The notes beneath the pieces are model-generated. The model did not search any database and was not told the DNA's origin. It saw nothing but the letters and a program-made list of their open reading frames with translations. A stretch of DNA of 64,000 nt from Eledone cirrhosa (taxonomy: Eukaryota): assembly GCA_964016885.1 (NCBI GenBank), contig OZ024742.1:87854001-87918000 (forward strand). The letters run 5' to 3'. Shown one piece after another: positions 4,908 to 55,968 of this stretch. Both the position numbers and the translations under genes were made by a program. Position 1 is the stretch's first letter. Every line of letters begins with the position of its first letter.

Positions 4908-5791
4908 TATCCAAATATTTATCAATTTAGAAACTCTTTCTCAAAGGCATATATATATATATACACATCTTTAAAAATATACCCATCTTTCTACCTTATT
5001 TCAAAGGTTATTATACATTCTATAATACTTGTTACTCATTCTATATCGCTCCTATTTATCACTTCCCTTTCTTCTCTTTTTCTTTTAATGTCTAACCCCT
5101 AATCTGTACCTTTTCTCACTGTTGACTAACATAGAATCAATTATTACATAATACAATACATTCTTACTCTATATCACCTTGTAAAAATCCTTCGTAAACA
5201 AACATTTTTTTGACGTTAGATTATTCATACTCAATTCATTATTTTTTTCTCCCTTTCATCTAACTCATTCATGCTCATCTCACAATATATCCTTACTTAA
5301 ATTACCTGTTGTTCTTTTTAATAATACATATGAACATTTTCTTTCCATCGCACATGTTATTAAACCCTTAAATATTATTCTTAATACATATTAACATTTT
5401 CTTTTCATCGCACATATTATTAAACCCCTCAATATACAAACCTTAACTTTACATAATTTTTCTCTTCGTTAATTTTCAAATTCTTTTAATTTATACATTA
5501 TCTTACAACGGTTTTCAACCTCTCTATGTAAAACAATATATCTTTCTCAGTTATAAAAGCTATCTCTCTCTCTCTATCACCCATCTCTCCTCCTATCTCA
5601 TCCTTCCTCATTATACTCCCCCCTCTCCACTTTTTACTCTCATCTCCTCCTCTTTTTCATCCGTTACACCCCCCCACAAAAAATAAATTTGTTTCCCAAT
5701 ATCACGCATCAATCTAAAACTACTTTTCATATGTTGATTTAAAACTGCCCTATCCACAAGTGTTTTTTAACCTTCATATCATGTCTTCCTG

Positions 5792-5858
5792 TTTTATCTG
5801 ATGAAAACGCAAATATCATTGCATGATGATATTTGTTTTTGAAATGCGCATAATAAAA
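5792..5858 (+). ncRNA. Type I hammerhead ribozyme (PLE pseudo-LTR)
   Basis: ttttat CTGATGA aaacgcaaatatcat..atgatatttgttttt GAAA tgcgca TA ataaaa; palindromic stem III. Confidence 0.88.
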
Positions 5859-5896
5859 TACATGGAACTCTTTTAACCATCTTTTGTTCTTATATG

Positions 5897-5936
<40 letters not shown>

Positions 5937-6344
5937 AAGGTATATATTGAGTTAGGAACTCAAAATAGTCTCTTACAACAAAATAGCTCTAAGAAAGAGA
6001 TATTTCCGAGCCGTATATTATAATTGAATATAAAAGGAAAACGAACACAGAAATATACATATATGAATTCAAATCGTAAGGGACCAGATTCGCTAAAGTA
6101 AAAAGAATACTAACTATAGACAATAGATTTTGCTTGTCTCAATTTAAAAAAAATCACGAAAATAAATACAAACCGGAATTGTGGTAACTACCGATCACCC
6201 AAACAACTTGGTGTTGCTTTGCAATGTTAATCGTGAATAGAGTTACACATTTTTGCTCATCAGTTGGTGATAAATTAGTACCCTAGACAGTTCTAAGTTA
6301 ATTTTTAAAAATGAACAGTGTGCCATATATTATAATTATTTTTA

Positions 6345-6520
6345 CTGTTTTGGCACAAGGCCAGCAATTAATCCAGTGCATTACTGGTGCTTTATTTTAT
6401 CGACCGCGTAAGGATGAAAGGCATAGTTAACCTCGGCGGAATTTAAACTCATAGCGTAAATGGCTGTAACTCTGTACTGCAAAGCATGGCGTCCGTCCCT
6501 CTACCGATACTGCCAGTCCA
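6345..6520 (-). mobile_element. tRNA-derived SINE (octopus-like family with gcctttcatcct...gtcgataaaataaagyaccag core)
   Basis: Minus strand has A box tggcagtatcgg and B box-like gagtttaaattcc; same family at 16813-16956 and 55795-55968. Confidence 0.85.
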
Positions 6521-6695
6521 ATAATATTAATAGCGCACATTGCGTCCTAGCGCGTCTCACACACTCACACGAATAAAAATAGCAGCCAGGTTTATTCGAC
6601 ATTTGAAATAGCTCAACAAATTAACGGAGCCGAATATATCAAAGGTTTATATCAAAGGTATATATTGAGTTAGGAACTCAACAAACAAGGGGAGT

Positions 6696-6747
6696 GCTAA
6701 GCTCTGAGGAATACCAACAGTATGAAAGAGAGATCTGTCAGCTTAGC
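6696..6747 (+). ncRNA. Type I hammerhead ribozyme, copy 1
   Basis: gctaagct CTGAGGA atac-caaca-gtat GAAA gagagatctg TC agcttagc. Confidence 0.85.
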
Positions 6748-7015
6748 TCCCTTTATTTGTTGAAAAAGAAGTAAGTGACATAGTTACTACTTTAAAATAA
6801 TAGGGTAAGGTCTTCAAAATGATTTTAATTAAGCATACAGTGTTTTGCCAAATACAATATTTATACTTTCATATATACATCGCTATCTCAGAGCACCAAT
6901 TCAAATTTTCAATTTTTTCTGGACCGGCAACCGCTCTGGATAATCAGTTCCTTATTATTACTGGCATTCTATAAGAATCCAACATTCATAATGTTTGCAC
7001 AAACAAGGATAGTGC

Positions 7016-7063
7016 TAAGCTCTGAGGAATACCAACAGTATGAAATAGAGATCTGTCAGCTTA
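7016..7063 (+). ncRNA. Type I hammerhead ribozyme, copy 2
   Basis: taagct CTGAGGA atac-caaca-gtat GAAA tagagatctg TC agctta. Confidence 0.85.
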
Positions 7064-7224
7064 TCTCCATTTGTTTGTTGAAAAAATAAGTAAGTGGCAT
7101 AGGTACTACATGAAAACTATAGCGCAAGGTCTTCTAAATGCTTTTAATTAAGCATACATTGTATTACCAAATACACTATATATACATTCATATATACATC
7201 GGTATTTCAGAGCACCAATTCTAA

Positions 7225-7298
<74 letters not shown>

Positions 7299-7338
7299 AA
7301 AATTAACAAAGAAGCCTTAATACATTAAACATCTTTAA

Positions 7339-7383
7339 TTGCTGACAATGTTTCGTCCCATTAATTAGGACTCATCAGAGCAA
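7339..7383 (-). ncRNA. Minimal type I hammerhead in a solo PLE pseudo-LTR fragment (about 7296-7560)
   Basis: Reverse complement: ttgct CTGATGA gtcc-taattaatg-ggac GAAA cattg TC agcaa. Confidence 0.85.
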
Positions 7384-7632
7384 CGAAAAAGACTAGAAAT
7401 ATCATCGGCTAGAACAAGCCAAAATTCAGAAGAATAGTGAATGGATAATAAGGAAAATTGAGGAAAATTGTCATGGAATGACATGTTAAACCTAATGGGG
7501 TGCATTTGTAAATAAAGACTATAGGGCAAGAGAGCAAGGAAACATTAAACAAACCCACTATATATATATATATAGAGAGAGAGAGTTTGAGTTTCAGACG
7601 CCAAAGGTCATAACTGGAAGTCACTGCATTTG

Positions 7633-7828: not shown

Positions 7829-8122
7829 ATGTATATATATGTATATTTATATATATACACAAAACGTCAGCATCAACCATTTTGCAAGAGATGTCAACAT
7901 AAATGGACCTGCTATTTTTACCTAAAGACATTTTTTTCCAATTCCATCTCGCCCGTGCCCTCAATCTATTTATTTCTCATTCTTTCTTCTGATGAAGAAC
8001 TAGTGTCCGAAAGGTTCAGACCCTCTTCCTGCTATATTAAGCGTTAACCTAATATATACCTTCCATATACTGTACCGATTGTGTTGGCATTTCTGTTTAC
8101 CTTTTCCACACACACACACACG

Positions 8123-8700
<578 letters not shown>

Positions 8701-11810: not shown

Positions 11811-11864
11811 ACATATATATATATTATCATGATAAGGAAAAAGGTTTCAGTGTTCCATCACACC

Positions 11865-11867
<3 letters not shown>

Positions 11868-11943
<76 letters not shown>
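11868..11943. repeat. (TAA)n microsatellite, upstream target of the R4/Dong element
   Basis: Read directly. Confidence 0.98.
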
Positions 11944-12795
11944 CCCTTCATAGTACCTTCTTTGTACCTTCGTACCTTCTTTGAGAAAACTGAATTTAGA
12001 GATCCACAGACATGGAACTGGTTGAGAAGAGGAGACCTCAAAAAGGCTACAGAAGGAATGCTAATGGCTGCGCAGGAGCAGGCCCTCAAAACGAAGTGGT
12101 TGAAGCACCATATTTACAAGGAGGAGGCTAGCCCACTGTGCAGGATCTGTGGAGAGAGAGAGGAGACTGTGGCTCACATTGTGTCCGAGTGTAAACACCT
12201 AGCCCAGACCCACTATAAGGGCTGGAGACACGATGTGATGGGCAGGGTGATCCACTGGCACCTGTGCAAAGTAAACAATTTACCACATTCTGAGAAATGG
12301 TATGAGCATAGGCCAGAGACGGTGATGGAGAACAATCAGGTGAAGGTGCTGTGGGATTTTAGGATACAGACGGACAAAAAACTGGAACACAATAGACCTG
12401 ACCTGGTGGTTGTGGACAAAGAAAAAAGATCGTGTCTGATTGTGGATGTGGCCTGCCCGTTCGACACGAGAGTGCAAGAGAAGGAGAGGGAGAAAATTAA
12501 CCGATACCAGGACCTAAAGTGGGAGGTGAAAAGGATTTGGAACTGCCATGAAGTCAAAGTGATCCCGATTGTCATAGGCGCACTGGGGACTATCTCCAAA
12601 AGTTTCCAGGGATGGTTAAAGAAAATCGGCCCCTTCACGCTTTTTGGAACGCTTCAAAAGGCATGCTTGCTTGGAACAGCAAGAAACCTCCGATACGTCC
12701 TGAATATCTGAGGCTGCAGGTAGTGGCTTGATATTCAATCCAACGGACTTTCCAGTTAACCAACATCAATGACTCAGATTCAAGGAATAACAACG

Positions 12796-12796
<1 letters not shown>
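11944..12796 (+). mobile_element. 5'-truncated R4/Dong-clade non-LTR retrotransposon (restriction-like endonuclease) in (TAA)n
   Basis: ORF 11962-12711 plus short 3' UTR; (TAA)n on both sides, the known Dong-type target. Confidence 0.9.
11962..12711 (+). CDS. C-terminal CCHC zinc knuckle and PD-(D/E)xK endonuclease of an R4/Dong-type LINE (open fragment)
   Basis: AAQEQAL, CRICGEREETVAHIVSEC, RHD, LWDF, RPDLVV..IVDVACP, K..RY..L, PIVIGALG. Confidence 0.92.
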   Translation: MYLRTFFEKTEFRDPQTWNWLRRGDLKKATEGMLMAAQEQALKTKWLKHHIYKEEASPLCRICGEREETVAHIVSECKHLAQTHYKGWRHDVMGRVIHWHLCKVNNLPHSEKWYEHRPETVMENNQVKVLWDFRIQTDKKLEHNRPDLVVVDKEKRSCLIVDVACPFDTRVQEKEREKINRYQDLKWEVKRIWNCHEVKVIPIVIGALGTISKSFQGWLKKIGPFTLFGTLQKACLLGTARNLRYVLNI

Positions 12797-12832
<36 letters not shown>

Positions 12833-13080
12833 TTTCTTTATTAACCACAAGGGTTTACATAAAGTAGACATTAAGGACAGTGCAGGACAAAACAGGACGC
12901 TACAAATGGGCATTTCTGCGTGTAAAAAACAAAAACAGAGGATGTAACAAAAAATAACAATGAAAAATTCCCCAATAGAGGGGAGACTTCGGAGGGACAT
13001 TTGTGGAGAAAGCCCAGTAAAAGGCCACAGTGACCCTGACCAACAAGGCAAGTGCCCTCTACCAGTTTTCCACCTTTAAG

Positions 13081-16000
13081 TTACAGATACGTACTCAGAG
13101 TAGGCCCATTCACTCGGGCCATTCTTGCTTCTCTCACCCATCTTTCAACAAAATGCTGGGAAGAGAGCACTTCCCTCTCTACTCTGATTTTCCTTTTCAA
13201 ATGAAATTTGAAAAAGTCAATCAGGGCATCACCGAAGCGGTAAGTGCTCGTCTTCAGCCCTTTCAAACGTGTCCACCATACTATCTCTTTCGCCATGGCC
13301 ACCAGACAGATAAAAACTGCCTGACCTTCCCGGCTAAAGGAAGAGGGCGAGGCAATCCTCACGATGGACTCAGATGCTAGCCGGATCCGTCCTATACGCG
13401 ACAGCAGGTGTTCGACATAAACCCACAAGTCAGCAATTTTCGGACACTGGACGAGTGCGTGCAGGACGGTTACGTCGCCCTGCGCGAATCTCGAACATGC
13501 CCGACTGACGGCACCTCCAAGCTTGTAGAGTTTATCCCGAACTGGCAAGGCTCCTCGGTAGCACTGCCAGGCCAGAGATTTCTGGAAATTGTCCATAGGT
13601 CCCTGCCCGAAAATCCTTCCGAAGACATTGGCTAGTTGATTTTCGTCGACGCCTAGAGTTTCTCTAAGTACGTCGTCGCTCTTCCCCTCCACTAATTCTC
13701 TATAGAACGCCGAGGTGGAGTTTCCACCGATCACATTGCCCGATTGGTCGAGGGCTGTGAGCGTCTGAAGACATTCCTGTCTCCAGGCGCTCCCTCTCGG
13801 TCTTCGCTTGACCCAGGACTGCAGCTCCGTCAAGGAAACGAGCTAGGGAAATACGTGTCTAGCAAGCGGCGACCACACCTGACCACCGTCGAGGACGAGG
13901 TGGAGATGTCGTAGCCTGAGCGCGTGTCTGCGCATCATCAGCCACGGCATTTCCAGCCCTCCACGTAGCGGGTGTTGATAGCAGATGGACCGCCTGATCA
14001 TCGTAGCGCGTCCCTTCCACAAAAAGCGAAAGAGCAAACGCTCCAGCGCAGTCAGGCGGGGCTTAGTACAAGGTACGACGGTCAGGCGGTAGCAGATGAC
14101 AGACGCGATGTACGCGTTAGCCACCTCCACTCGACCTTTCAGGGATAGCTTCCTCTTCGCCCATTTCTGGGTGAGTGAAGCCACCCTGATCGTCACCTCG
14201 TCCCGGTTTTTGTCTGTCTGGAGGTCCGGACCCAACCAGACCCCTAGCAATTTAACCGGTCCGTCCGTCCAGCGTCCGACGACGCTTTTGGACGGCATGG
14301 ACCTGCCTATCTAGGAGCCGAGCTGCAGAAAATTAGACTTTTCCTGGTTGATCATTGCTCCTGTCACCGCTTCGTATTCTCTTAGTGTAGTGCCGATCGC
14401 CTCGATGTGTTTGGCGTTCGACACCACTACGGTGACATCGTCCGCTTATGCTGACACGGATCTTTCGCATCCTAGTTCGCGCGGGACGCCCCTCAACGTC
14501 TCCAGTTTGTGCAGTAATGGCTCGAGAGTCAATACGTAATGAGGGACGAGAGGGGACATCCTTGGCGGACCGAGCGCATGATGTTGAACGGTTCCGAAAG
14601 GTGACCGTTCACTCTCACCTCAGAGTAGATGTCGCTGTGCATGGCAGCGATCCAGCCTCTGAAGACGGGCCCAAAGCCAGCCGCCCCAGGACTGCCGCTA
14701 GGTAACGATGGTCGTCTCTATCGAAAGCTTTCGACTGATCTAAATTGATCAAGGACCCACCCGCGCCAGGTTCCCTAGCTACCCTCTCTACGATGTATCG
14801 CATGAGGTGGAGGTTGTCGTGGATGGATCTGTCGGCAATAGCGCTTGCCTGCGCCTCTCCCACCAGACCACCAACGACAAGCGCCAACCTCTTTGCTAGC
14901 ACCTTGGCAAAAATCTTGAACTCTGTATTTAGCAGAGTTATGGGCCTGAAATTATCTATGTTATCCCCCTTGTTCGGATCCTTTCTCAGCAGCGCCACAG
15001 CTCCTCGGCTCACACAGCTGGGAATTCTCCCGTTCTGTTGCCAGTTGCAGTAGACATCCGCCAAGAGGCCTCCGAACAAGTCTGGCATCTGCACGTAAAG
15101 TTCATAGGGCAGACCATCGAAACCAGGCGATTTACCCCTTGTGCAGCCAGTCATTGCCTCCCGTACTTTAGCGGCTGTTATCGGCTTTTCGCAACACTCC
15201 GCCTCAGTGGCCGAGCGCCACGGCAGTGCGTCGAGGTAGACACTAAAGTCCATTCCTCAAACTGGCCCGCCACTGCCCCCGAACATATGTGCGAAGTGTC
15301 GCTGAAAAGCTTCACACATTTTCCCGGGATCGACTAGCATGCGCCCGTCATGGTCCACCAAAGACCGGATCGTGGCTTTGTTACCACGACGCGCCTCCGC
15401 CACTCGGGCCCATTGAACGGCTTTTGTCCCCTCGTGTCTGAGAGCACGCACCCTAGCTCTGACAACGCAACCTTCGTGCTTTGCATTGAAGAATTGGTCA
15501 AGGGCCAATTTCGCCGCAAGCACGTCGGTCGCAATGCCTTTGCTAAGCGCCTCGTCTAATTTTATAACTAGTTCTCCCTCTGCTCTATTTTTCTCTATTG
15601 CTAAAGCCTTACTATACCTGATGGATTCTATTCTAATCGTTCTTTTCAGAGCAAACCACCACTTGTTGTTGACGATGGCCCCCGTCAACGCCCGCTTAAC
15701 TAGTTCGCTAATCCGGTACATGTAGGTCTTGCGCGCTGGTAAGGACGGGTTTAGCTACCATCAGCCGTGTCCTCATCTATGAAGTCTATCTAAGTCAAGC
15801 ACAAATATCACGAATTTGTGGTACGTGTAGCTGACTATCTTGAATTGTGGACAGCCTATGCTAGACCTATCTATTTCCCTACAAAATACTCTATCTAGAT
15901 ATGATCTGGATGACCCTATGCGATTTGTCCAAGTCCACATTGGCATATTCGGGAAATCCAATCGGTACCTGTCAGACAGTGCAAATGGCTTGAGCAGGTT

Positions 16001-16505
16001 GGTGAGGCTCTTGCACCCTGCTCCCCTATCCGCCAATCCCACACAGTCCCAGCGTGCATCTAAGATCCCGTTCCAGTCGCCCACTAACACTAAAGAGCGG
16101 GGCGTTCCAAGAAAGGTCTCCAGACGCTGGAAGAAATCAGTCCGCCCTGCTCCTATCGGGGCATAGACGGCCACTAGCCTGAAAGCTTGCCCGTATTCGC
16201 TGGTCACGTCCAGCACCACCAACTTACCTTCCTGGTCCAGGAAGATCGCCCGTATGGCGAGATCTAAACCTCTCCGAAAAGGGACAGCAAATTCTACCCC
16301 CGATCCATGACGGCTGGGAGATTCGTACACATCGTAGCCGCCGAAGATCGGTGCGAAGGCCCGTGCTTCGGAGATTCTGGTCTCCCTGGTGGCCACTACA
16401 TCTATGTTTAGTGACTTGAGGTCGTTGAGGAGGTGGCCCAGCTTCCATGACGACCCCAAGCCACGCGCCTTTAAGCTGCTCATTCTGAGTGAGGTCATGT
16501 TGAAT
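13081..16505 (-). pseudogene. Tx1/L1 ORF2 (APE endonuclease, reverse transcriptase, C-terminal Zn motif), broken by several stops and frameshifts
   Basis: VYAP, GDWN, SYLDRVF; KSPGFDGLPYE, FRPITLLNTEFKIFAK, LDQSKAFDR, YADD (about 14440), KLLGVWLG, RGGLEMP, HALVQCP. Confidence 0.93.
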
Positions 16506-16580
16506 TGGAGTGGAAAAGATGGGAAAGACCACTTACCTTACTTCTCGTAGAGGAAGGATGGTTTCTGCATCCTTTTCACT

Positions 16581-18589
16581 TCATGTGGCCTCCTCTGGAA
16601 GGATGTCATTATAAATCCTCATGGAGAGTGCTTGTCGGAAGTCTCCGATTCTTTGAGGAATTTTTGTTTTAGTGTCGTGTGCGTTTTCTGTGTGATGCGA
16701 GTGATATGTATGTGTGGAGGTGGTGTGAACTGTTTGGGTGTTGTGTAGTTTTTTACTGTGATGCTGGTGTTGTGTTGGATGTAGTGTAATAGTTGGTTGT
16801 TGTTCAAATTTAATTGTTTCTAATTTAGGCACAAGGCCAGCAAAATAACCAGTGCATTACTGGTACTTTATTTTATCGACCCCGTAAGGATTGATAAAAT
16901 AAAGTACCAGTAATGCACTTGGTGATTGCTGGCCTTGTGCCTAAAGTAGAAACAATGCTCTGTAGTGTGTATCGTTTTGGTTATTTTGTTTTCTTTGTGT
17001 TTGTTGTTGGTTTGTTTCTGTTTCGCTTTTTGGTGACTCTTGTGGTGTTTGTGATGGTGGTGTTGGGGTTAATGATGGTGATGGTGTTGGTGTTTGTGGT
17101 GATGGGGTTGGTGATACTGGTGTGGATGATGGCATATCTGTCCTAACTTTTTTGTTTGATAGTTTATTTGTTTCCTTCTGTATTTTGTTTTTGGAGGGGG
17201 AAGGAAGATGATTTTTTTCTTTTTTGGTTTCTTTTCCCTTTTTTTCTTTTTTCCTGATACCGTTTCCCACTCCTCGTCGTCACAATTTGTCTCCAGTTGC
17301 GGTAGGTCGGGGAGTGGAAAATCGTCCACTGGCGTTGGTTTTGCTTGTTCCGTTGTGGATGGTGTAGGCGCTGGTGCTAGTTCTCGCGCGTTGGGTGGTG
17401 GTGGTTGTGGTTTTGCTACTGTTTCTGGGGTTGTTGCTGTTACAGTTGCTTCTGTTGTTACTGCTACAGTTGTTGCTGCCATTTCTGCTGTTGGTGGTGT
17501 TGCTGATTGAGTCACTGCGGTGGGTAAGAGAGGTGGCCTCAACCTTTTAGCCTGAGGGCAGAAAGCCCTTATGTGGGTTCCATCACCACAAACGACACAC
17601 CTATGCCTTCTGCCCTCGAAGATTACGGTGAGGTGGCTGCCGTAGGTAAGATCTATTACCTCTGGGATCTCCTCAATGCTTTTTTGGTCCGCTTGGATCA
17701 GGAGCTCCATCCCAGATCCGGACCAGTTCTCCTGCTTTTCTTTCGCTATTTCGATTATGTTGGTGTGAGCCTCGATGCCGGCAAGGACGGCAGCCATTAG
17801 CCAGAGAATTTAGATGGCCGGTGGAACGTGGGTCACCCTGATCTTCACGAGTCTCTGGCCACAATAGCTTGGGACGAGTGTGAAGTCGTCACTTCTTAAT
17901 GGGGCCATGGAGTGTTCTCTAGCCTCCTGTGGTATTTCAAAGAACACGTCCACGGTTCCATACTTCTGCCCACGTCTGATGTGGTTTCTATTTGCCCACA
18001 CATGTCCCGAAGCTTTTGGGATTTGTGACTCGGATGCCCATTCCACTCGGCGCAATTTTATATTAATCGTTCGATAAGACACAGTGCATAGGCGCCGATA
18101 TCTCCATTGTATTTGGTGGAGCGGTGTGGTGGGGTAGGCTGACCCTGTACCCATGTTTCTTTACCATTCTCTTGGCTTCGTCTAATTCCTCCTTTTTGGC
18201 TGCCTTCGCAAAGACACGATGTTGTTCTCATTGTTGTTGTTGCTGTTGTTATTGTATTTTTTTGTTATTGTCATTTTTAGTTTCAGTTGTGGTGGTGGGG
18301 CGTCACTGGTGTTCGGTGTGGAAGAGTCAATTCTGGGTGAATCCATTTCGATGTCACGTGATAATCTATTTTTTCTTTTGTTTCTGTTGTCGCTCTGGTG
18401 GTGGTGGCGGTGGCGGCTTCAACACCTGCAGTCGTTTGTAATGGCGGGAAATGAATGTCTGCATGAGACAAATTTAAATTATTGCTACTGCTTATATTTT
18501 TAGTGTTGGCAAACGTAGTAATATTTACAATGGTGGTGTCCAAGGTGAGGTGTTAGTTTGTGAGGAAGGTTTGACTGTGAGTCGTCCAT
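16581..18589 (-). pseudogene. Tx1/L1 ORF1 (gag-like, CCHC knuckle, P/T/K-rich C-terminus), disrupted
   Basis: CVVCGDGTHIRAFCP in 17069-17797; WETVSGKKKK; upstream in-frame fragment 17810-18154; start and end approximate. Confidence 0.75.
16813..16956. mobile_element. Palindromic pair of SINE 3' fragments inserted in Tx1 ORF1
   Basis: Arms 16813-16879 and 16891-16956 match the SINE at 6345-6520. Confidence 0.85.
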
Positions 18590-21603: not shown

Positions 21604-22137
21604 TTAATTGTAAGTTGTGATGTTGCTATTCCACTCATGTTTTCTATTTAATTTTGGTTGTAATTCTTTTATGCTTACTGCCTCTGTAATTTGCCTAAAC
21701 CTTGCATCTTTTCTGTGTGTGGATTCTATTTTTATTTCTATGTTCTCTAATTTACCCTTGTGTTCTATCTTAGCATGTTGGTAGAGTACAGATGATTCTT
21801 TATTATCTTGAAGGTCTCGCCAGTGTTCATTTATCCGTTCCCCTATACTACGAGCTGTCTCACCTATGTACACTATATTTTTGTTTCTACATTGTCCTTC
21901 AGTACATCTTATGCTATACACTACATTTCTAGTTTTACAGTTTATATGGGGGCTTATTTTACAGGTTATACATTTCTTATCTATACATGAGGGTCTTTGG
22001 AACGGGTATGTCTTGCTAATAAGTGTTTTTACGGAGGTACCTGGTCTTTCTACTATCTTAATATTGAGTTTATGTTTATTTAGGGCCCTTCTAAATGTGT
22101 AGGCTAGTTCGCCTCTAGGGGTTGTATTGATGAACAT
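21604..22137 (-). CDS. Open GIY-YIG endonuclease fragment in the inverted arm
   Basis: VVYSIRC...CRNKNIVYIGETARSIGERINEH...LYQHAKIEH...ITEAVSIKELQPKLN. Confidence 0.88.
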   Translation of the reverse strand: MFINTTPRGELAYTFRRALNKHKLNIKIVERPGTSVKTLISKTYPFQRPSCIDKKCITCKISPHINCKTRNVVYSIRCTEGQCRNKNIVYIGETARSIGERINEHWRDLQDNKESSVLYQHAKIEHKGKLENIEIKIESTHRKDARFRQITEAVSIKELQPKLNRKHEWNSNITTYN

Positions 22138-22219
22138 TACACTCTGGTATGTATTGCTATCATACCATGAGTTTATTCTATTGGCCTTGTTCCTAGTTCT
22201 TTCTATTCTATTGCAAAAT

Positions 22220-23726
22220 AGTAATAGTTACCTAGACACTTATGACCTTAGCAACCTGTGTCCTACAAGACCTGCAAGAGGCAGACCACCTACCATTACC
22301 TCTATGGCCAAGAAAACCCACACAGATAGATGGAACGAGTGGACCAGAGCCATACGGACACCCGAAAACCACGATGAACTGAATAAAATGATTGCACATG
22401 CGGTAGCGGCCGGCATAAAATTAACCCTTAAGGAATATATGTTCAAATTTAATTGAAAAACATATGCCCAAGAGGAAGGAGCAGCCATTGGTGTTAGCAT
22501 TGCAGGCGACATAGCTAACTTATTCATGGTATGGTGGGACAGTAGACTTAAACTTAAACTTAAAGAACAATTAAAAGACAGCTTAACCCTGATAATGTAC
22601 TCCCGCTATGTAGATGATATAAACATCGTAGTTAAGACACCTCCACTAGAGAACAGTCAGGAACTAGAGAAAAACACAATGGAAAGCATCCAGCAAATAG
22701 CAAACTCCATCCACCAGAGCATTAGAGTTACTATAGACTACCAAAGTAGACACCCCAACCATCGATCACCTGTACTAGACACAGAGCTCTGGTTAGATAC
22801 CACTAATAACAAAAAACAAATCCTCCATTCCCATTATGCCAAACCGATCATTTCCAAACATCTGATCCACCGAAACTCAGCTGTTTTGGACCATACCAAA
22901 ATCAACATACTGATTGCGGATTTGGTACGGGTGATGAGAAACGTGGCCCGCATGTGCAACCCCGAAGAACTAGAGAGACACATACAACACTTCATCCACC
23001 GTATGCAGTTCTCTGGTTATAATCAGAGAGATAAAATTAGAGTGTATAGAGGAGCCAGAACCAAATGGGAAAAAATGGTAAATAATGACACAAATGGACC
23101 TGACCCTTGTATAGGAGCAAATTTGGGAAAAGAATAGAAATAACTAGGAATAAGGGTAATAGAATAAACTCATGGTATGAGAGCAATAAATACCAGAGTG
23201 TAATGTTCATCGATACAACCCCTAGAGGTGAATTAGCTTACAAATTTAGAAGGGCCCTAGATAAACATAAACTCAATATTAAGATAGTAGTACCTCCGTA
23301 AAAACACTTATTAGCAAGACATACCCTTTTCAAAGACCCCCGTGTATAGATAAGAAATGTATAACCTGTAAAATAAGCCCCAATATTAACTGTAAAACTA
23401 GAAATGTAGTGTATAGCATAAGATGTACTGAAGGACAATGTAGAAACAAAAATATAGTGTACATAGGTGAGACAGCTCGTAGCGTAGGGGAACGGATAAA
23501 TGAACAGTGGCGAGACCTTCAAGATAATAAAGAATCATCTGTACTCTACCAACATGCTAAGATAGAACACAAGGGTAAATTAGAGAACATAGAAATAAAA
23601 ATACAATCCACACACAGAAAAGATGCAATGTTTAGGCAAATTACAGAGGCAGTAAGCATAAAAGAATTACAACCAAAATTAAATAGAAAATATGAGTGGA
23701 ACAGCAACATCACAACTTACAATTAA
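22220..23726 (+). pseudogene. PLE RT, thumb and GIY-YIG with stop and frameshifts
   Basis: ORF pieces 22127-22456, 22526-23137, 23107-23301, 23409-23726. Confidence 0.9.
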
Positions 23727-23930
23727 GGACAAAATGAAAACACACACACACATAGAACAAACAACCAACCAACAACATGTAAATAAATAAACAAATAGAT
23801 AAATGAACACAAACACACACAGACACCCGGATGTGGCGCATGCGCAAACTGAGCACACAACACACACTCAGAAACAAAATGGCGTAGGACAGAAGAAAGG
23901 AAAGGCACAGAAATAAAGAAAGGAATCCCC

Positions 23931-23975
23931 AGTCACTGAAGAGGTCACAAAGTGTGTGACGAAATGACTATGACT
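23931..23975 (+). ncRNA. Minimal hammerhead with extra nucleotide after A9
   Basis: agtca CTGAAGA g gtcaca-aagtg-tgtgac GAAA tgac TA tgact. Confidence 0.75.
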
Positions 23976-26900
23976 ATATATAAACAACTATCTGGTTGTG
24001 GAACCAACCAACCAACCAGAAATTTATAAGTTTGTAGATTTGTAAATTTATAAATTTATAAATATATAATAAATTGAAGTGAAAGCAACTGGTGCGTGTG
24101 TTACTTATTGGCAACATGACCCTCCCAAAGTATAACCATATCGGTTTCAACACACGATTTCAGATAAAGAATCTTGCTAAACAAATTCAGAAACGAAATA
24201 TATATATATATATATATATATAAATGAAAGGTATAGAAATTGTTTTAGCGATAAGCTAACAGTATTCCATAACATATATGCGACTATTGCCTCAAAATGG
24301 GAAAAATAGTTAACGTAAGATGTAGGAAAAATAATTCAAACTCATCTCAAAAGAGAATCAGGATATAAATTCATCCACAGAATTTAGTGAAATCCAGGGA
24401 AAAATCAATAGAGCCTTAACTCATGATAAAATGAAGTCTAAAATACTTATCCTTCAATTTGGAAAAACATCAAACGCTTTGTATAGTCTTAAAGACTATT
24501 TATATATACATGTACTTGCGCAAATATTCTTTCTTGCAGATTTTGGGAGAATCGAAACCCAAATTATCGGCACAGTACTATGGAAGTTTACATATACTTA
24601 AATTATTTTCAGTTGAATCGTCACATGAATTACGTAGCTGTATGGTAAACGTCTTCACCATATCCACGGAAATTCAGGAATTCAGAATTTCAAATAAAGT
24701 TTGCTTTTATTTAGTGTAATGAATATGTTATGGATCGTTTTCAACTAAATATTAAAATAGTAACAAATAGTAATTTTCAATAGAATTAATCTTACAAATA
24801 TTGGAATTTGATGGACTTTCTTCTCTTTTTTTTCTGGCCACGAGGTTTGTGTAAAGCGACGTTTTGTTCATTTTCTATATGCAATCCGAGATGGCATTGT
24901 ATTTTACTTCATAATTGTATCTGATTCTCATATTTCATCTCATATTTATTTGTTATAATTTTCTTAATCATTGGTAAACTAACTTTATTCAGTTGTAAAT
25001 TATTCGTAGTGCTTTCATTATAGAGGTTTCTCATTAAATCTCTGAGCTTTCATTCCAAACTCTATATATCTTATTTGCTGCTATGCCAATTGATTGTCTT
25101 ATGAACTTTATATTATCCTATATTTACGTTTTGAATATATATTCCAGATTGTATAGGTGTGTAGAATCTCAAAAGCCTGAATATTGCCTGCATTAAGTTA
25201 TGATTACACACCAATAACAGGCACAATGCTAGACTTGAATGTCCATGTGATTAAGATATTTAACACAATTTCTAAATTGGTTCATGTAATTCTCTAGATG
25301 ATTTTAAATGTGTCTACATCTCAAATGGAAATACTATTTAACAAACATTTCTTTTCTCTTTCTACACCACAGCTTTCGACTTTCCCAATAAAATTGTGGT
25401 AAGGCTTTTCGAAGCGGTTGTTGTGTTTCTCTGTGAGTATATATGTGTGTGAGTACGTGAATGCGTGCATAGGGGCTGCTTTCTATTTATATTTGCAGTG
25501 TTTTATTTTCTCTAGAGATATTTCATATCCGCTGTTAATTCACTGTTATGCCATATAACCAAATATTTATTTATTCGATTATTTTGTGAAAGTGGGCGTT
25601 AATATGGTACTGTTCCATCGAGTCACAGTTTTTCACTAATATACTGTAGATTTCTATCCGAATTTACAAGAGAAAATATCTGGTCAATTTATTTCTTCTG
25701 ACATAATTGTTGATGATTTCAGTGAATTTCCTTCATCTATGAAAATGTAAAAAAAGAAAAAAACATTCGTATGCATCTTTATATGTACGAGTATTAATCT
25801 GCGCAATTTAGTTTTATGTTGACATTAGAGAGAACTTATACGTATTTTCCAATTCCCTCCATAAATCCATAGATATACGTTTTTATATTACTATTACTAT
25901 AAATCTATATTTGCAGCAACTAATTTTTATACAATTCCCTTTATACTGTTTACATGGATCATACGTGCTGTGATGTACCCATATGCTTAAGCGAATTGCA
26001 GTATGATTGAAATGCTTTTGTTGATAGTCATAATACTAAAATCAATATTTCTAATTTATCTTCCTCAAGGGAGATATTACTCAAGCTCTAGCAATTCTTA
26101 CTGCCGTCACTGAATGCTTTAAAATGTTTCTTCTTCATTCGCTTTCATCTCGTGCTTTTAGACACATATTCAACATAATTTTGCCTCCATTAAAATAGCA
26201 TATTTTATCTTATTTTACGTTATATAAATATTTACTCCTTTGTTTTATTGTGTTAATATTTACTATATTTTATTAATATATTTTGCAGCTGTATATTTTT
26301 TCATATATTTTTCAACAAAGTTTATTTTAATATGTCATGTCAACAAGAGGTTTTGTTGGTGTAATAGTAATGTAGCATGCCTTTTCAACAATTTTATCAT
26401 AAAATTCACACAGAATTTCTCCTACTTCATAAAGTATGTCGTTAATACGGATATATATGTCAGTATCTTTAATCTCATGTAGTCTATGTTGTTATTGTCG
26501 TCAGCATCCTTTCTAGTTCTCGGTGTAGATTAAATTATGGTGCTAAAAGACTCTAGTTTGGCTTGAAATCAAATGTCAAAACCATTCCTTTGTATTGCAA
26601 TCGTTTCCATATTAACGATTGTAATAACAGATTTAAAAGCAATATGAGTGTTGTTATTATATTTGTTTTTCTTTTAGTCGGTTTACTATTACGCCTTTTC
26701 ACAGAAATCATAAGTGCCCTGTGTATAAATGGCATTTCATGTTGGTTTTGAATGTTCTATTATGTTAACATTATTCTACGTAAAATATTTTCTTTACATT
26801 GTAGTGCTTTCTGCATGGTGTGAATATTTGTGTGGCAGGTTGTGTTTTGTTTATATATTTTTCTGCACCAGATTTAGTTATTCAAATTCATATAATACAT

Positions 26901-38139: not shown

Positions 38140-41656
<3,517 letters not shown>

Positions 41657-53386: not shown

Positions 53387-55794
53387 GTATGTGTTTGTGT
53401 GTGTGTGTCTATGGGAATTATGTCTATTGTCTTATTTACATGTTGCAAGTGTTTAAGTTGTTTGTGGTACTGTTAAATAAATAATTTTATTTTGCTTCAT
53501 ACTTTTCAAGTTGATAAATATAACTATATACGAATATGTTCAGAACGTTCTCTGTGAATCTTATACCTCCCTCAAACTCCATTATTATGTCTATTATAAC
53601 TAATCTTAGTATCTGTTTAAAATTACATAAATATAGCCACATTTTATCACGAATGTAGTAAGGAAACCATCTTCTGATTTTATAGGAACCCCATTACGCA
53701 AGACGTTTGGAAATGATAGTGGTACATTGTTTCTTTCAATATCATTCCTATTTTGCTAGTCATTTTCAATCTTCCGTTTTTCCTACTTAAATAGATATAT
53801 CGGCAACTGAACAATGCTATAGCTAGGAGAAACAAATGAAATGATGGCAAGCAATTTATCCTTTAATATATGTTCGTAAACCAACTCCACGTGCAGCGTT
53901 TTAGCGGCATATTTTCGTTTTCTTTCTAAGGACATCGTATATATCAATGCAATTTAGAACTTTCTGATTCCCTCATGTTCAGAATTTTAAGAGATAAATG
54001 AGGCAAACGAGTTGAAGCTCTGAAGAACCTATTAACTCATTGCAGCAAACGTCAGGGATTTACACACAGGGCAACATTTATAATTTCGAATGAAATAAAA
54101 CGAACAGTTAGTAAATATATACATATTAAAATTAATATATATACATATAAAATATATATTAATAAACAATTCACGATGCACTTAATGTATTTATATATAT
54201 ATATATACTAGCAATATACACAGCGAAAGGAAATTAGTTCAAACAAAATAGATTAAAATTAGTTATTGTTTTTCTAATGAGTTTGCAAATATAAACACGG
54301 TTATCTACTTTGCTATTCCTGATCGGTTCCAGTAATGAGTGGATTTTAAAATATTCATGTTCAAAGTTACATGTGTCACGGTCTCACCTATTTTCTTACA
54401 GATACCCTTATCTCTTACTATAGAATTTACGTAAATAGTCTAACGCATATATTTCAATACTTGTAAACGCGTCTCGGTATTTCAAATGTATTGTAGACCA
54501 GAATGTATGTGTTTTCTTATTAAGGGCCACCATTTATTTACAGACCCGAAATTGTTTCGCTGAAGCAACGGCAGCACTTCAACAGGTTTGGTACACTCGA
54601 GAATGAAGCAGCTTGCAAGTTCACCCAGTTCGATATCGTAATCATTTATATTCATATACTGGAGCACTTTTTATTGGAAGATATCCGAAGGCATACATTT
54701 GGGCTCAACGTCCTGTATATCAGAATAAATGTAAACGATAAGAATCGCCTTCTGTTCAACTATAGCTTCTTCTAAATAAACAGTGAAGGTATTTGCTGTT
54801 CAACACGACAATGGGGTTCTACGACGTGGCTGACTATGCTGATGTTCCCGACTTTTTCATTATCGATACCCTAAAGAACATACACTTGGATAAGCTTTGT
54901 AAAGATACAATGACCTGATAATTTAAATCAATGAACGGAGATATATTGCGGTTATTTGTTCAGAAAAGAACTTATGAGGACCTTCAAACACTCAGCTTTA
55001 ACATCATGGTTATCACTAACTTAATCAATTTAATTTTCGAGACATCACACTGGTATAAAATTGGGAAGCCATATTCAAGTATGTGACCGTAACAAAGACC
55101 AATATATATACATAGGATCACATAAAAGCATATGTTTGTATTTGCGAACTTAATAAAAGGGATTAGCAAAAATATATCGAGCCCATCTTCCAACAGATAT
55201 ATTATTGTCAGGGCTACACGCAATTACATCGAATCACTAGCAGTGAATGGTAACATAAATCACTAGCATACATTGAGAACAAGGAACTGATGACAGTCAT
55301 CGTAAGATAGAGAACATCAAACTGGTTCAAACTACTAATCAGTGTAGATGGCTTCAGGAATATAGCAAAGAGATTCAAGAAAGCAATAGAATAAACTTCC
55401 AACACAACTACAAATACCATAAACACTTCGACTCACCCGAAGCTAAGATTCCCTATATCCCGTTTAGTTAACATTGTGTTTTCTGATAGTTTACAATAAC
55501 AGAAAAACATTAAATGCCAACCACACACTAACGAAAACCTGCCAAACATTTTCTCGGTGTTTTAATCTTCTAATCGTCAAAAGTATTCTCGAACGTTGAA
55601 ATTGACTCTATGGAACACCTGCTGTCGAACTCAAGCTATCCAGAACGTATGAATACGAATATTCTGTTTAATATACCTGAATATGTGTGGATGATTGTTT
55701 CAAATAGTGAAATTCAGAAAATGGTTAGACAATTAAATCAAATGCTACCTGAAAGACAGTATACATCAATGTTATTACATAAATGTTTCTACTT

Positions 55795-55968
55795 TTGGCA
55801 CAAGTCCAGCAATTACCTAGTGCATTACTGGTAGTTTATTTTATCGACCCCGTAAGGATGAAAGGCAAAGTTGACCTCGGCAGGATTTGAACTCAGATTG
55901 GAAAGGGCCGTAACTCTATGTATCATAGAATGGCGTCCGACCCTCTACCGATACTTCTAATTCACCGT
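55795..55968 (-). mobile_element. tRNA-derived SINE (family of 6345-6520)
   Basis: ttttatcgaccccgtaaggatgaaaggcaaagttgacctcggcaggatttgaactca; B box gagttcaaatcc on minus. Confidence 0.88.

What the first reader, a model, noticed from the sequence alone, without database searches (positions are those of the whole stretch)
6681..7228. Tandem hammerheads delimit a 318-nt non-coding monomer: candidate retrozyme/circular RNA
Seen: two type I HHRs with identical CTGAGGA/GAAA/GTC cores 318 bp apart, a long extended stem I (aacaagg..gctaagct / agcttagc..tttgtt), AGATCT palindrome in stem III, no ORF. Cores and stem II are identical while flanks have diverged. Established: metazoan non-LTR retrozymes are tandem units of a few hundred nt that self-cleave to monomers and circularise. 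Inference: cleavage after C6739 and C7057 would release a 318-nt RNA (6740-7057).
Basis: partly seen in the sequence, partly recalled or inferred. Interest (0 to 1): 0.72.

Follow-up and report, generated by a model that had tools for sequence, protein, structure and literature searches.

The report
Decayed Penelope-moved hammerhead retrozyme copy
This is an old, mutated copy of a small non-coding repeat scattered widely through this animal genome; it carries two predicted self-cutting RNA motifs and was likely pasted in by a Penelope-type jumping gene, which makes it a new member of an already known kind of element.

Summary
The two type I hammerheads 318 nt apart are real. They belong to a 1.7-unit insertion (6681-7229) of a dispersed, non-coding ~316-nt repeat family in a 3.0-Gb animal genome. 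The cores are not identical: both carry independent mutations at stem III base 15.2 (G6728, T7046; family C), and each copy is 6-7% from the family majority. This locus is therefore probably decayed, not a working circle factory. Family-wide, the hammerhead fold is kept by compensatory changes across subfamilies, including a C3-G8 to U3-A8 core swap. Insertions end at two fixed sites about 30 nt apart, typically on (TA)n, and two-armed insertions pair one of each (42 of 44). That is the known Penelope 'tail' footprint. Arms usually read through the cut site, and units within one insertion share variants, which fits a circular or uncut multimeric RNA template. I found no coding partner and no RNA data. 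Verdict: new member of a known class (animal non-LTR retrozymes). The scan has reported this pattern repeatedly in this genome, probably including this family's U3-A8 subfamily.

The parts
6681..7229 (+). Single-armed insertion of the retrozyme family: one full unit (6681-6998) plus unit positions 1-229 (6999-7228); subfamily A1
   Evidence: copies 88% identical over 231 aligned nt; 19/318 and 17/229 differences from the family majority
6681..6762 (+). Hammerhead 1 (type I): stem I 6681-6703/6740-6762, core CTGAGGA 6704-6710, stem II 6711-6723, GAAA 6724, predicted cut after C6739
6728..6728 (+). C15.2-to-G change giving a G-G mismatch with G16.2 next to the core; predicted to impair cleavage
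   Evidence: constrained active fold 3.9 kcal/mol above MFE against 0.7 for intact copy L034
6999..7080 (+). Hammerhead 2: core 7022-7028, GAAA 7042, predicted cut after C7057; C15.2-to-T at 7046 (U-G wobble) and three distal stem I mismatches
6740..7057 (+). Predicted 318-nt monomer between the two cut sites (predicted only; no RNA seen)
   Evidence: family majorities fold as circles with z about -6
7192..7199 (+). End site A (unit position about 193-200, blends into TA); passed through in this copy
   Evidence: 71 of 165 outward ends fall at unit positions 183-204
7200..7229 (+). About 30-nt Penelope-type 'tail' up to end site B (unit 226-234), where this insertion ends
   Evidence: 70 of 165 outward ends fall at unit positions 222-236
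7230..7298 (.). (TA)n microsatellite at the 3' end; inferred target site
6678..6681 (.). TCAA microhomology at the 5' junction with the neighbouring repeat family
   Evidence: sequence; loose ends
5930..6680 (-). Second, unrelated non-coding tandem family (about 530-560-nt unit, interrupted by a SINE-like insert at about 6330-6520), head-to-head with the retrozyme and ending at (TA)n 5898-5934; possibly the other arm of the same insertion event
   Evidence: (3006 candidates, 40 scored)

Best explanation
This is a decayed 1.7-unit genomic copy of a dispersed, non-coding ~316-nt hammerhead repeat family (an animal non-LTR retrozyme) that was likely inserted by the RT-endonuclease of a Penelope-like element (PLE), and this copy's own ribozymes are predicted to be impaired. 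Shown: the family, its subfamilies, the covarying hammerhead fold, two fixed 3' ends, head-to-head arms that pair site A with site B, read-through of the cut site, and variants shared within an insertion. Inferred mechanism: intact tandem copies are transcribed, self-cleave and are ligated into ~316-nt circles. A PLE protein binds the RNA at the tail region, cuts both strands of a TA-rich target and primes reverse transcription internally, at site A on one strand and site B on the other. It copies past the re-ligated cut site, and the two cDNAs, or one cDNA and flanking DNA, are joined by microhomology. Here the opposite arm is absent or was supplied by a second repeat family.
For: Dispersed family: 2936 first-look candidates, 40 scored; 143 exact intact A1 cores; subfamily B and C queries gave 1651 and 1759 candidates (not copy numbers, may overlap). 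Covariation on 25 distinct hand-picked HHR rows, including both window copies: 96% of cells paired, 13 of 33 pairs with double changes, slid controls 2-4. C3-G8 in 93 and U3-A8 in 35 of 145 cores; stem II base A-U in 92 and G-C in 47 (the U3-A8 share is inflated by a B-targeted search). Ends in 101 non-redundant loci (120 fetched, 19 dropped as the same place): 71 at A and 70 at B of 165. Of 64 two-armed insertions 42 are A+B, 2 B+B, 0 A+A and 20 have an atypical end; without the B-biased sample 27 A+B, 1 B+B (p=1e-7). PLE papers describe a 30-40-nt tail at one end of inverted insertions (PMC8557442, PMC3846280; passages) and internal RT starts with extension of both strands (PMC11167929). An abundant RT+GIY-YIG PLE family with open frames of about 900 codons has the same two-end, TA-anchored pattern. 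Read-through: 124 of 166 arms span at least one cut site and 25 span two or more (partly selected). 60 arms remained at risk just past the cut site against 64 just before it. Same template within a locus: 197 shared non-majority bases against 51.6 +/- 7.3 permuted; site 167 concordant in 79 of 92 pairs against 51% expected; no position-specific variant among 176 sites.
Against: No cleavage, transcript or circle was observed. No autonomous partner was found: a family profile hit no pseudo-LTR in 69 PLE loci from about 8 families, a small sample of more than 10,000 GIY-YIG candidates. There is no spike of 5' ends at the cut site (3 observed, 3.0 expected). 3 of 40 loci with two or more cores mix subfamilies, one of them in tandem within one arm (L015), which a single monomer circle cannot give without a template switch. 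Long arrays are rare (1 of 101 loci) and that array is old (13.6% internal divergence). In vitro the PAc PLE uses uncleaved RNA and shows no strand difference in start site. Gene conversion could also produce within-locus sharing. No overall A>G strand bias (p=0.14 and 0.29).
Confidence: 0.78

Rival explanations
1. Same PLE mobilisation, but the template is an uncleaved linear multimeric transcript from tandem source copies; circles are a by-product or absent.
For: PAc uses unprocessed RNA and its ribozyme is dispensable in vitro (PMC11167929). Mixed-subfamily tandem at L015. Arms are short: only 1 of 166 spans more than two cut sites. MFE folds put the core into a non-catalytic pairing, 0.7-5 kcal/mol below the active fold.
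Against: A fixed multimer source should show position-specific variants; none among 176 sites. Arms would shrink over generations unless tandems are regenerated. The hammerhead fold is kept through many compensatory changes.
Confidence: 0.35
2. One reading: this very copy is transcribed and releases a 318-nt monomer (6740-7057) that circularises.
For: Two hammerheads in tandem with intact CUGAGGA, GAAA and GUC; U15.2-G16.2 in copy 2 is a wobble; the palindromic stem III could allow dimer folding.
Against: G15.2-G16.2 mismatch in copy 1, not rescued by strand exchange with copy 2 (also G16.2); broken distal stem I in copy 2; 6-7% divergence from the majority against a median of 4.4% in sampled copies (samples are biased to close matches); no promoter identified.
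Confidence: 0.1
3. The unit is merely the pseudo-LTR of a coding PLE, left as 5'-truncated remnants.
For: All end features are PLE features; 9 of 125 loci have PLE-coding fragments within 1.5 kb; at L143 a PLE ORF end directly precedes the unit.
Against: Arms extend 5' into more copies of the unit, not into an ORF. The L143 join is absent from the 19 other fetched copies of that PLE, whose pseudo-LTR, where it is preserved, has a different hammerhead.
Confidence: 0.07
4. DNA-level tandem duplication or satellite with a chance hammerhead-like motif.
For: One old 7-unit array exists.
Against: Dispersed copies with fixed 3' ends, variable 5' ends, inverted arms and structural covariation including the core pair.
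Confidence: 0.02

Closest known systems
Metazoan non-LTR retrozymes (coral, mussel, axolotl; Cervera and de la Pena 2020, PMC7229834; parts 2-4 of 6 read)
   Same: Non-coding 150-450-bp tandem units, GC below 50%, type I hammerhead, self-paired predicted circle, coexistence with PLEs; PLE mobilisation from a circle is proposed there.
   Different: There cleavage and circRNAs were shown experimentally; here neither was. This family is mostly short one- or two-armed dispersed insertions with fixed PLE ends, which the parts read do not describe.
Retrozymes as non-autonomous PLE derivatives (Li, Clavereau and Pollet 2026, bioRxiv 10.64898/2026.07.22.740005; parts 1-3 of 5 read, supplements closed)
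   Same: PLE origin and mobilisation; mean units near 310-340 bp in several groups; 8 of 9 genomic dimers tested there did not cleave, in line with decayed copies.
   Different: Their evidence is co-occurrence and pseudo-LTR homology in Xenopus. Here the evidence is insertion anatomy, and no homologous pseudo-LTR was found.
EN+ Penelope-like elements (Arkhipova 2013 PMC3846280 and Craig 2021 PMC8557442, passages; Frangieh 2024 PMC11167929, parts 1-2 of 4)
   Same: Partial tandems, inverted 5'-truncated arm, ~30-nt tail at one end only, AT/(TA)n targets, microhomology joins, internal RT start.
   Different: No ORF; canonical long-stem hammerhead rather than a minimal one; PAc showed no strand bias in start site, whereas A and B are paired here.
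U3-A8 hammerhead variants of Schistosoma Cercyon PLEs (Cervera and de la Pena 2014, PMC4209133; passages)
   Same: Same compensated core swap as subfamily B.
   Different: Here it sits in a long-stem retrozyme hammerhead; the window copies are C3-G8.

Membership tests
Type I hammerhead ribozyme | CUGANGA / GAAA / NUH core closed by stems I-III | tested here: met
   met for the family (80 of 145 cores pass all four checks); window copies fail the 15.2-16.2 Watson-Crick check
Type I hammerhead ribozyme | Structural covariation | tested here: met
   13 of 33 pairs with double changes, 0/500 shuffles reach it; events are few and inherited by subfamily, rows hand-picked
Type I hammerhead ribozyme | Match to an Rfam hammerhead model at gathering score | tested here: not met
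   none in the window; L119 gives only 20.5 bits to HH9, E 0.42; no match shows only that nothing reached these models' thresholds
Type I hammerhead ribozyme | Self-cleavage | not testable with these tools
   needs an in vitro assay
Metazoan non-LTR retrozyme | Short non-coding tandem unit, one HHR per unit, no LTR-type organisation | tested here: met
   PBS/PPT not searched specifically
Metazoan non-LTR retrozyme | Multi-copy, dispersed, dimers to multimers | tested here: met
   25 of 166 arms hold two or more cut sites
Metazoan non-LTR retrozyme | Stable self-paired monomer | tested here: met
   circular MFE about -80 kcal/mol, z -6.2 and -5.8 for the A1 and B majorities
Metazoan non-LTR retrozyme | Expressed as linear and circular monomer RNA | not testable with these tools
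   no RNA holder listed
PLE-mobilised element | Fixed 3' ends with a ~30-40-nt tail at one end of inverted insertions | tested here: met
   42 A+B, 2 B+B, 0 A+A of 44 typed two-armed loci
PLE-mobilised element | AT-rich/(TA)n target and variable 5' truncation | tested here: met
   (read from printed flanks; no formal count of TA flanks)
PLE-mobilised element | Sequence shared with an autonomous PLE partner | tested here: inconclusive
   none in 69 + 20 PLE loci; small sample of the genome's PLEs
Autonomous PLE pseudo-LTR | Regularly attached to an RT+GIY-YIG ORF | tested here: not met
   2 of 37 single-armed loci abut PLE coding DNA (one inverted, one a one-off join)

The most novel reading that the evidence does not exclude
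One PLE complex copies a single ribozyme-made RNA circle from both strands of a DNA break, starting at two different fixed sites. The hammerhead is the fastest-changing yet structurally selected part of the lineage (20-40% divergence between subfamilies against 7-14% in the body, including a swapped core pair), so self-cleavage is needed for spread even though PLE RT itself does not need it. The window locus would be a chimeric event in which the two arms came from two different retrozyme RNAs.
Probability: 0.35. Interest if true: 0.55.

Novelty: new member of a known kind. Interest (0 to 1): 0.28.

Why it matters
The locus itself is an ordinary dead repeat copy. The family adds genomic support for a proposed but unshown step, PLE-driven retrotransposition of animal retrozymes, and gives defined test substrates: an RNA with two mapped start sites, three natural ribozyme variants (C3-G8, U3-A8, and a U-U/GUU variant) and candidate PLE proteins with long open frames in the same genome. 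This value is shared with, and probably better served by, the younger retrozyme families that the scan has already reported in this genome.

Tried and rejected
No RNA holder listed; the two runs laid are contigs of one sample of unrecorded kind, so they say nothing on expression, and their joints going back from about 6992 to 6678 are just the tandem junction in other copies. Rfam: nothing at gathering score. Partner search: GIY-YIG family search, 19 long-ORF regions, a young ~900-codon family and the L143 junction gave no homologous pseudo-LTR; weak profile hits at L189 and L178 (E 0.011, 0.12) lie beyond those elements' own ends and were dismissed. RNA-editing scars (lead from scan notes): no overall A>G excess; of 10 sub-region tests four had p<0.05, one in the opposite direction and one strong (B, unit 205-316, p=0.0007), which I did not pursue. 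Cut-site scars: no spike at unit 57-63; a post-hoc step (19 stops in 1826 nt just 3' of the site against 5 in 1926 nt just 5', p=0.002) is confounded by stem I self-complementarity and BLAST end trimming. Apparent arms starting at unit 60 (L016, L037, L058) overlap the opposite arm through stem I and were not counted as cleavage evidence. The sigma-70 scan is irrelevant for a eukaryote. The first duplicate filter failed; counts come. Literature: searches for hammerhead ribozyme + octopus, retrozyme + cephalopod, and retrozyme/rolling circle/reverse transcription/target-primed/inverted listed no paper on this family; subscription papers and bioRxiv supplements were not visible and could hold it.

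Full report
Observation. The two motifs are at the stated places: CTGAGGA at 6704 and 7022, GAAA at 6724 and 7042, GTC ending at 6739 and 7057. The repeat is one full unit plus 229 nt of a second, 88% identical, and ends in (TA)n at 7230. There is no ORF above 51 aa. The cores differ at hammerhead position 15.2: G6728 and T7046. Contigs from two runs of one sample read C at both places at over 99% of depth, and 127 of 145 genomic cores have a Watson-Crick pair there. Both window ribozymes have thus been hit independently beside the core pair. Copy 2 also has three stem I mismatches and folds no better than shuffles. The apparent conservation of core over flanks is not significant (p=0.09).

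Family. The genome (3.0 Gb, animal; a cephalopod by my recall of the SINE-like insert and by scan notes, not tested) holds the unit at many dispersed sites: 2936 first-look candidates with 40 scored, and 143 exact copies of the intact 36-nt core. One old array has 7 units. Targeted searches revealed subfamilies B and C. Their majorities differ from A1 by 19/93 and 28/92 positions in the hammerhead but by 15/206 and 24/209 in the rest of the compared unit. The changes keep the fold: 13 of 33 pairs show double changes and 96% of cells pair, against about 40% for slid controls (26 rows chosen by me to span subfamilies, so events are few). Subfamily B has the C3-G8 to U3-A8 core swap, an A-U to G-C change at the stem II base and a different palindrome (AGAGCTCT); the swap is known from Schistosoma PLEs (PMC4209133, passages). 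Subfamily C has a U-U stem II base and a GUU site. Selection therefore acted on the source lineages, not on inserted copies, whose cores are no less diverged than the body. The majority monomers fold as stable circles (z about -6).

Insertion anatomy. In 101 non-redundant loci (120 fetched, 19 dropped as duplicates), 141 of 165 outward ends fall at two sites: unit 183-204 (A, 71) and 222-236 (B, 70), typically running into (TA)n. 64 loci are two-armed, head-to-head. Of the 44 with both ends typed, 42 pair A with B, 2 are B+B and none A+A; without the B-biased sample it is 27 against 1 (p=1e-7). Twenty have an atypical end. A 30-40-nt tail at only one end of inverted insertions is a described PLE hallmark (PMC8557442, PMC3846280; passages). 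A purified PLE protein cuts and extends both strands and starts RT at two internal sites that bound the tail (PMC11167929, parts 1-2 of 4). RT+GIY-YIG elements are abundant here, and a family with open frames of about 900 codons shows the same two ends on (TA)n. The window copy is single-armed and ends at B. Its 5' end joins a second non-coding tandem family (5930-6680, minus strand) head-to-head through a TCAA microhomology, and that family also has two fixed ends. This may be one chimeric insertion or two successive ones; L126 shows a similar join.

Template. Arms usually cross the cut site: 99 of 166 cross one, 24 two and 1 six (long arms were partly selected for), and only 3 arms stop at it where 3.0 are expected. 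Segments of one insertion share non-majority bases four times more than permuted controls (197 against 51.6 +/- 7.3; first 53 loci, two array or duplicated loci left out). No variant is tied to terminal or internal position. This fits one RNA species copied repeatedly, as a ligated circle would be; circles are shown for other animal retrozymes and proposed as templates (PMC7229834, parts 2-4 of 6). Against it: 3 of 40 multi-core loci mix subfamilies, arms are short, gene conversion is not excluded, and PAc uses uncleaved RNA. Circle against uncut multimer is therefore open; I lean to the circle.

Partner and expression. No autonomous element with a homologous pseudo-LTR was found in 89 PLE loci. 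The one ORF-to-unit join (L143) is a one-off. No RNA run holds the sequence, which is no evidence either way.

Comparison and verdict. The element works like, and on all sequence-testable features belongs to, the animal non-LTR retrozymes; their link to PLEs is argued in bioRxiv 10.64898/2026.07.22.740005 (parts 1-3 of 5; supplements closed). My searches listed no paper on this family. Scan notes (unchecked AI notes, seen after I had the A/B pairing and the U3-A8 swap) report the same two-armed pattern for several families in this genome, and probably this family's subfamily B; a look-up by sequence returned nothing. New member of a known kind; this locus is probably dead; interest 0.28.

Noticed in passing
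window 5692-5897 (+), motif 5798-5852: Unrelated repeat with a type I hammerhead-like motif (CTGATGA, long stem II, GAAA-T-GCGC-A-TA with palindromic loop), ending at (TA)n 5898; matched in 9 of 246 fetched loci.
   Followed up: partly
window 7338-7384 (-): Another canonical type I hammerhead (Rfam Hammerhead_1, 33 bits against gathering 34, E 4.6e-5) facing the same (TA)n tract from the right; repeat seen in 2 of 246 loci.
   Followed up: partly
window 7880-8110 (+), core about 7988: Repeat with a minimal hammerhead-like core (CTGATGA...GAAA), PLE pseudo-LTR-like, ending near (TA)n at 8123; matched in 14 of 246 loci.
   Followed up: partly
window 5930-6680 (-): Second tandem non-coding family (3006 candidates) with two fixed ends about 85 nt apart and head-to-head arms; relatives show a possible long-stem hammerhead, not verified.
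   Followed up: partly
window 21604-24222: Broken two-armed coding PLE: RT+GIY-YIG pieces at 22103-23726 (+), inverted arm 21604-22227 (-), pseudo-LTR with hammerhead-like core near 23935, ending at (TA)n 24198.
   Followed up: partly
window 11836-16537: LINE-type fragments (endonuclease, RT, zf-RVT) on the minus strand at 13084-16537, plus a plus-strand zf-RVT piece at 11836-12708.
   Followed up: no
window about 6330-6520, 16811-16956, 55779-55955: Abundant ~185-nt SINE-like repeat, also in many fetched loci; resembles an octopod repeat (recalled, not tested).
   Followed up: no
L176-L205: Young, abundant PLE family with open frames of 900-905 codons, many in head-to-head pairs; minimal hammerhead, in several copies with CCGAAGA instead of CTGAAGA; ends about 42 nt apart.
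   Followed up: partly
L015 (1501-2020), L125, L017/L100 (junction at L100 about 1960): Chimeric insertions: subfamily A2 followed by B in one arm; B and A2 on opposite arms; a PLE coding arm head-to-head with the 7-unit array.
   Followed up: partly
family hammerhead, e.g. L119:1521-1616 (-): An alternative pairing of the stem I/core 5' strand with stem III is the MFE fold, strongest in subfamily B (5 kcal/mol below the active fold); could be an off-switch in the circle.
   Followed up: partly
window 38141-41655: 3.5-kb (TA)n tract.
   Followed up: no
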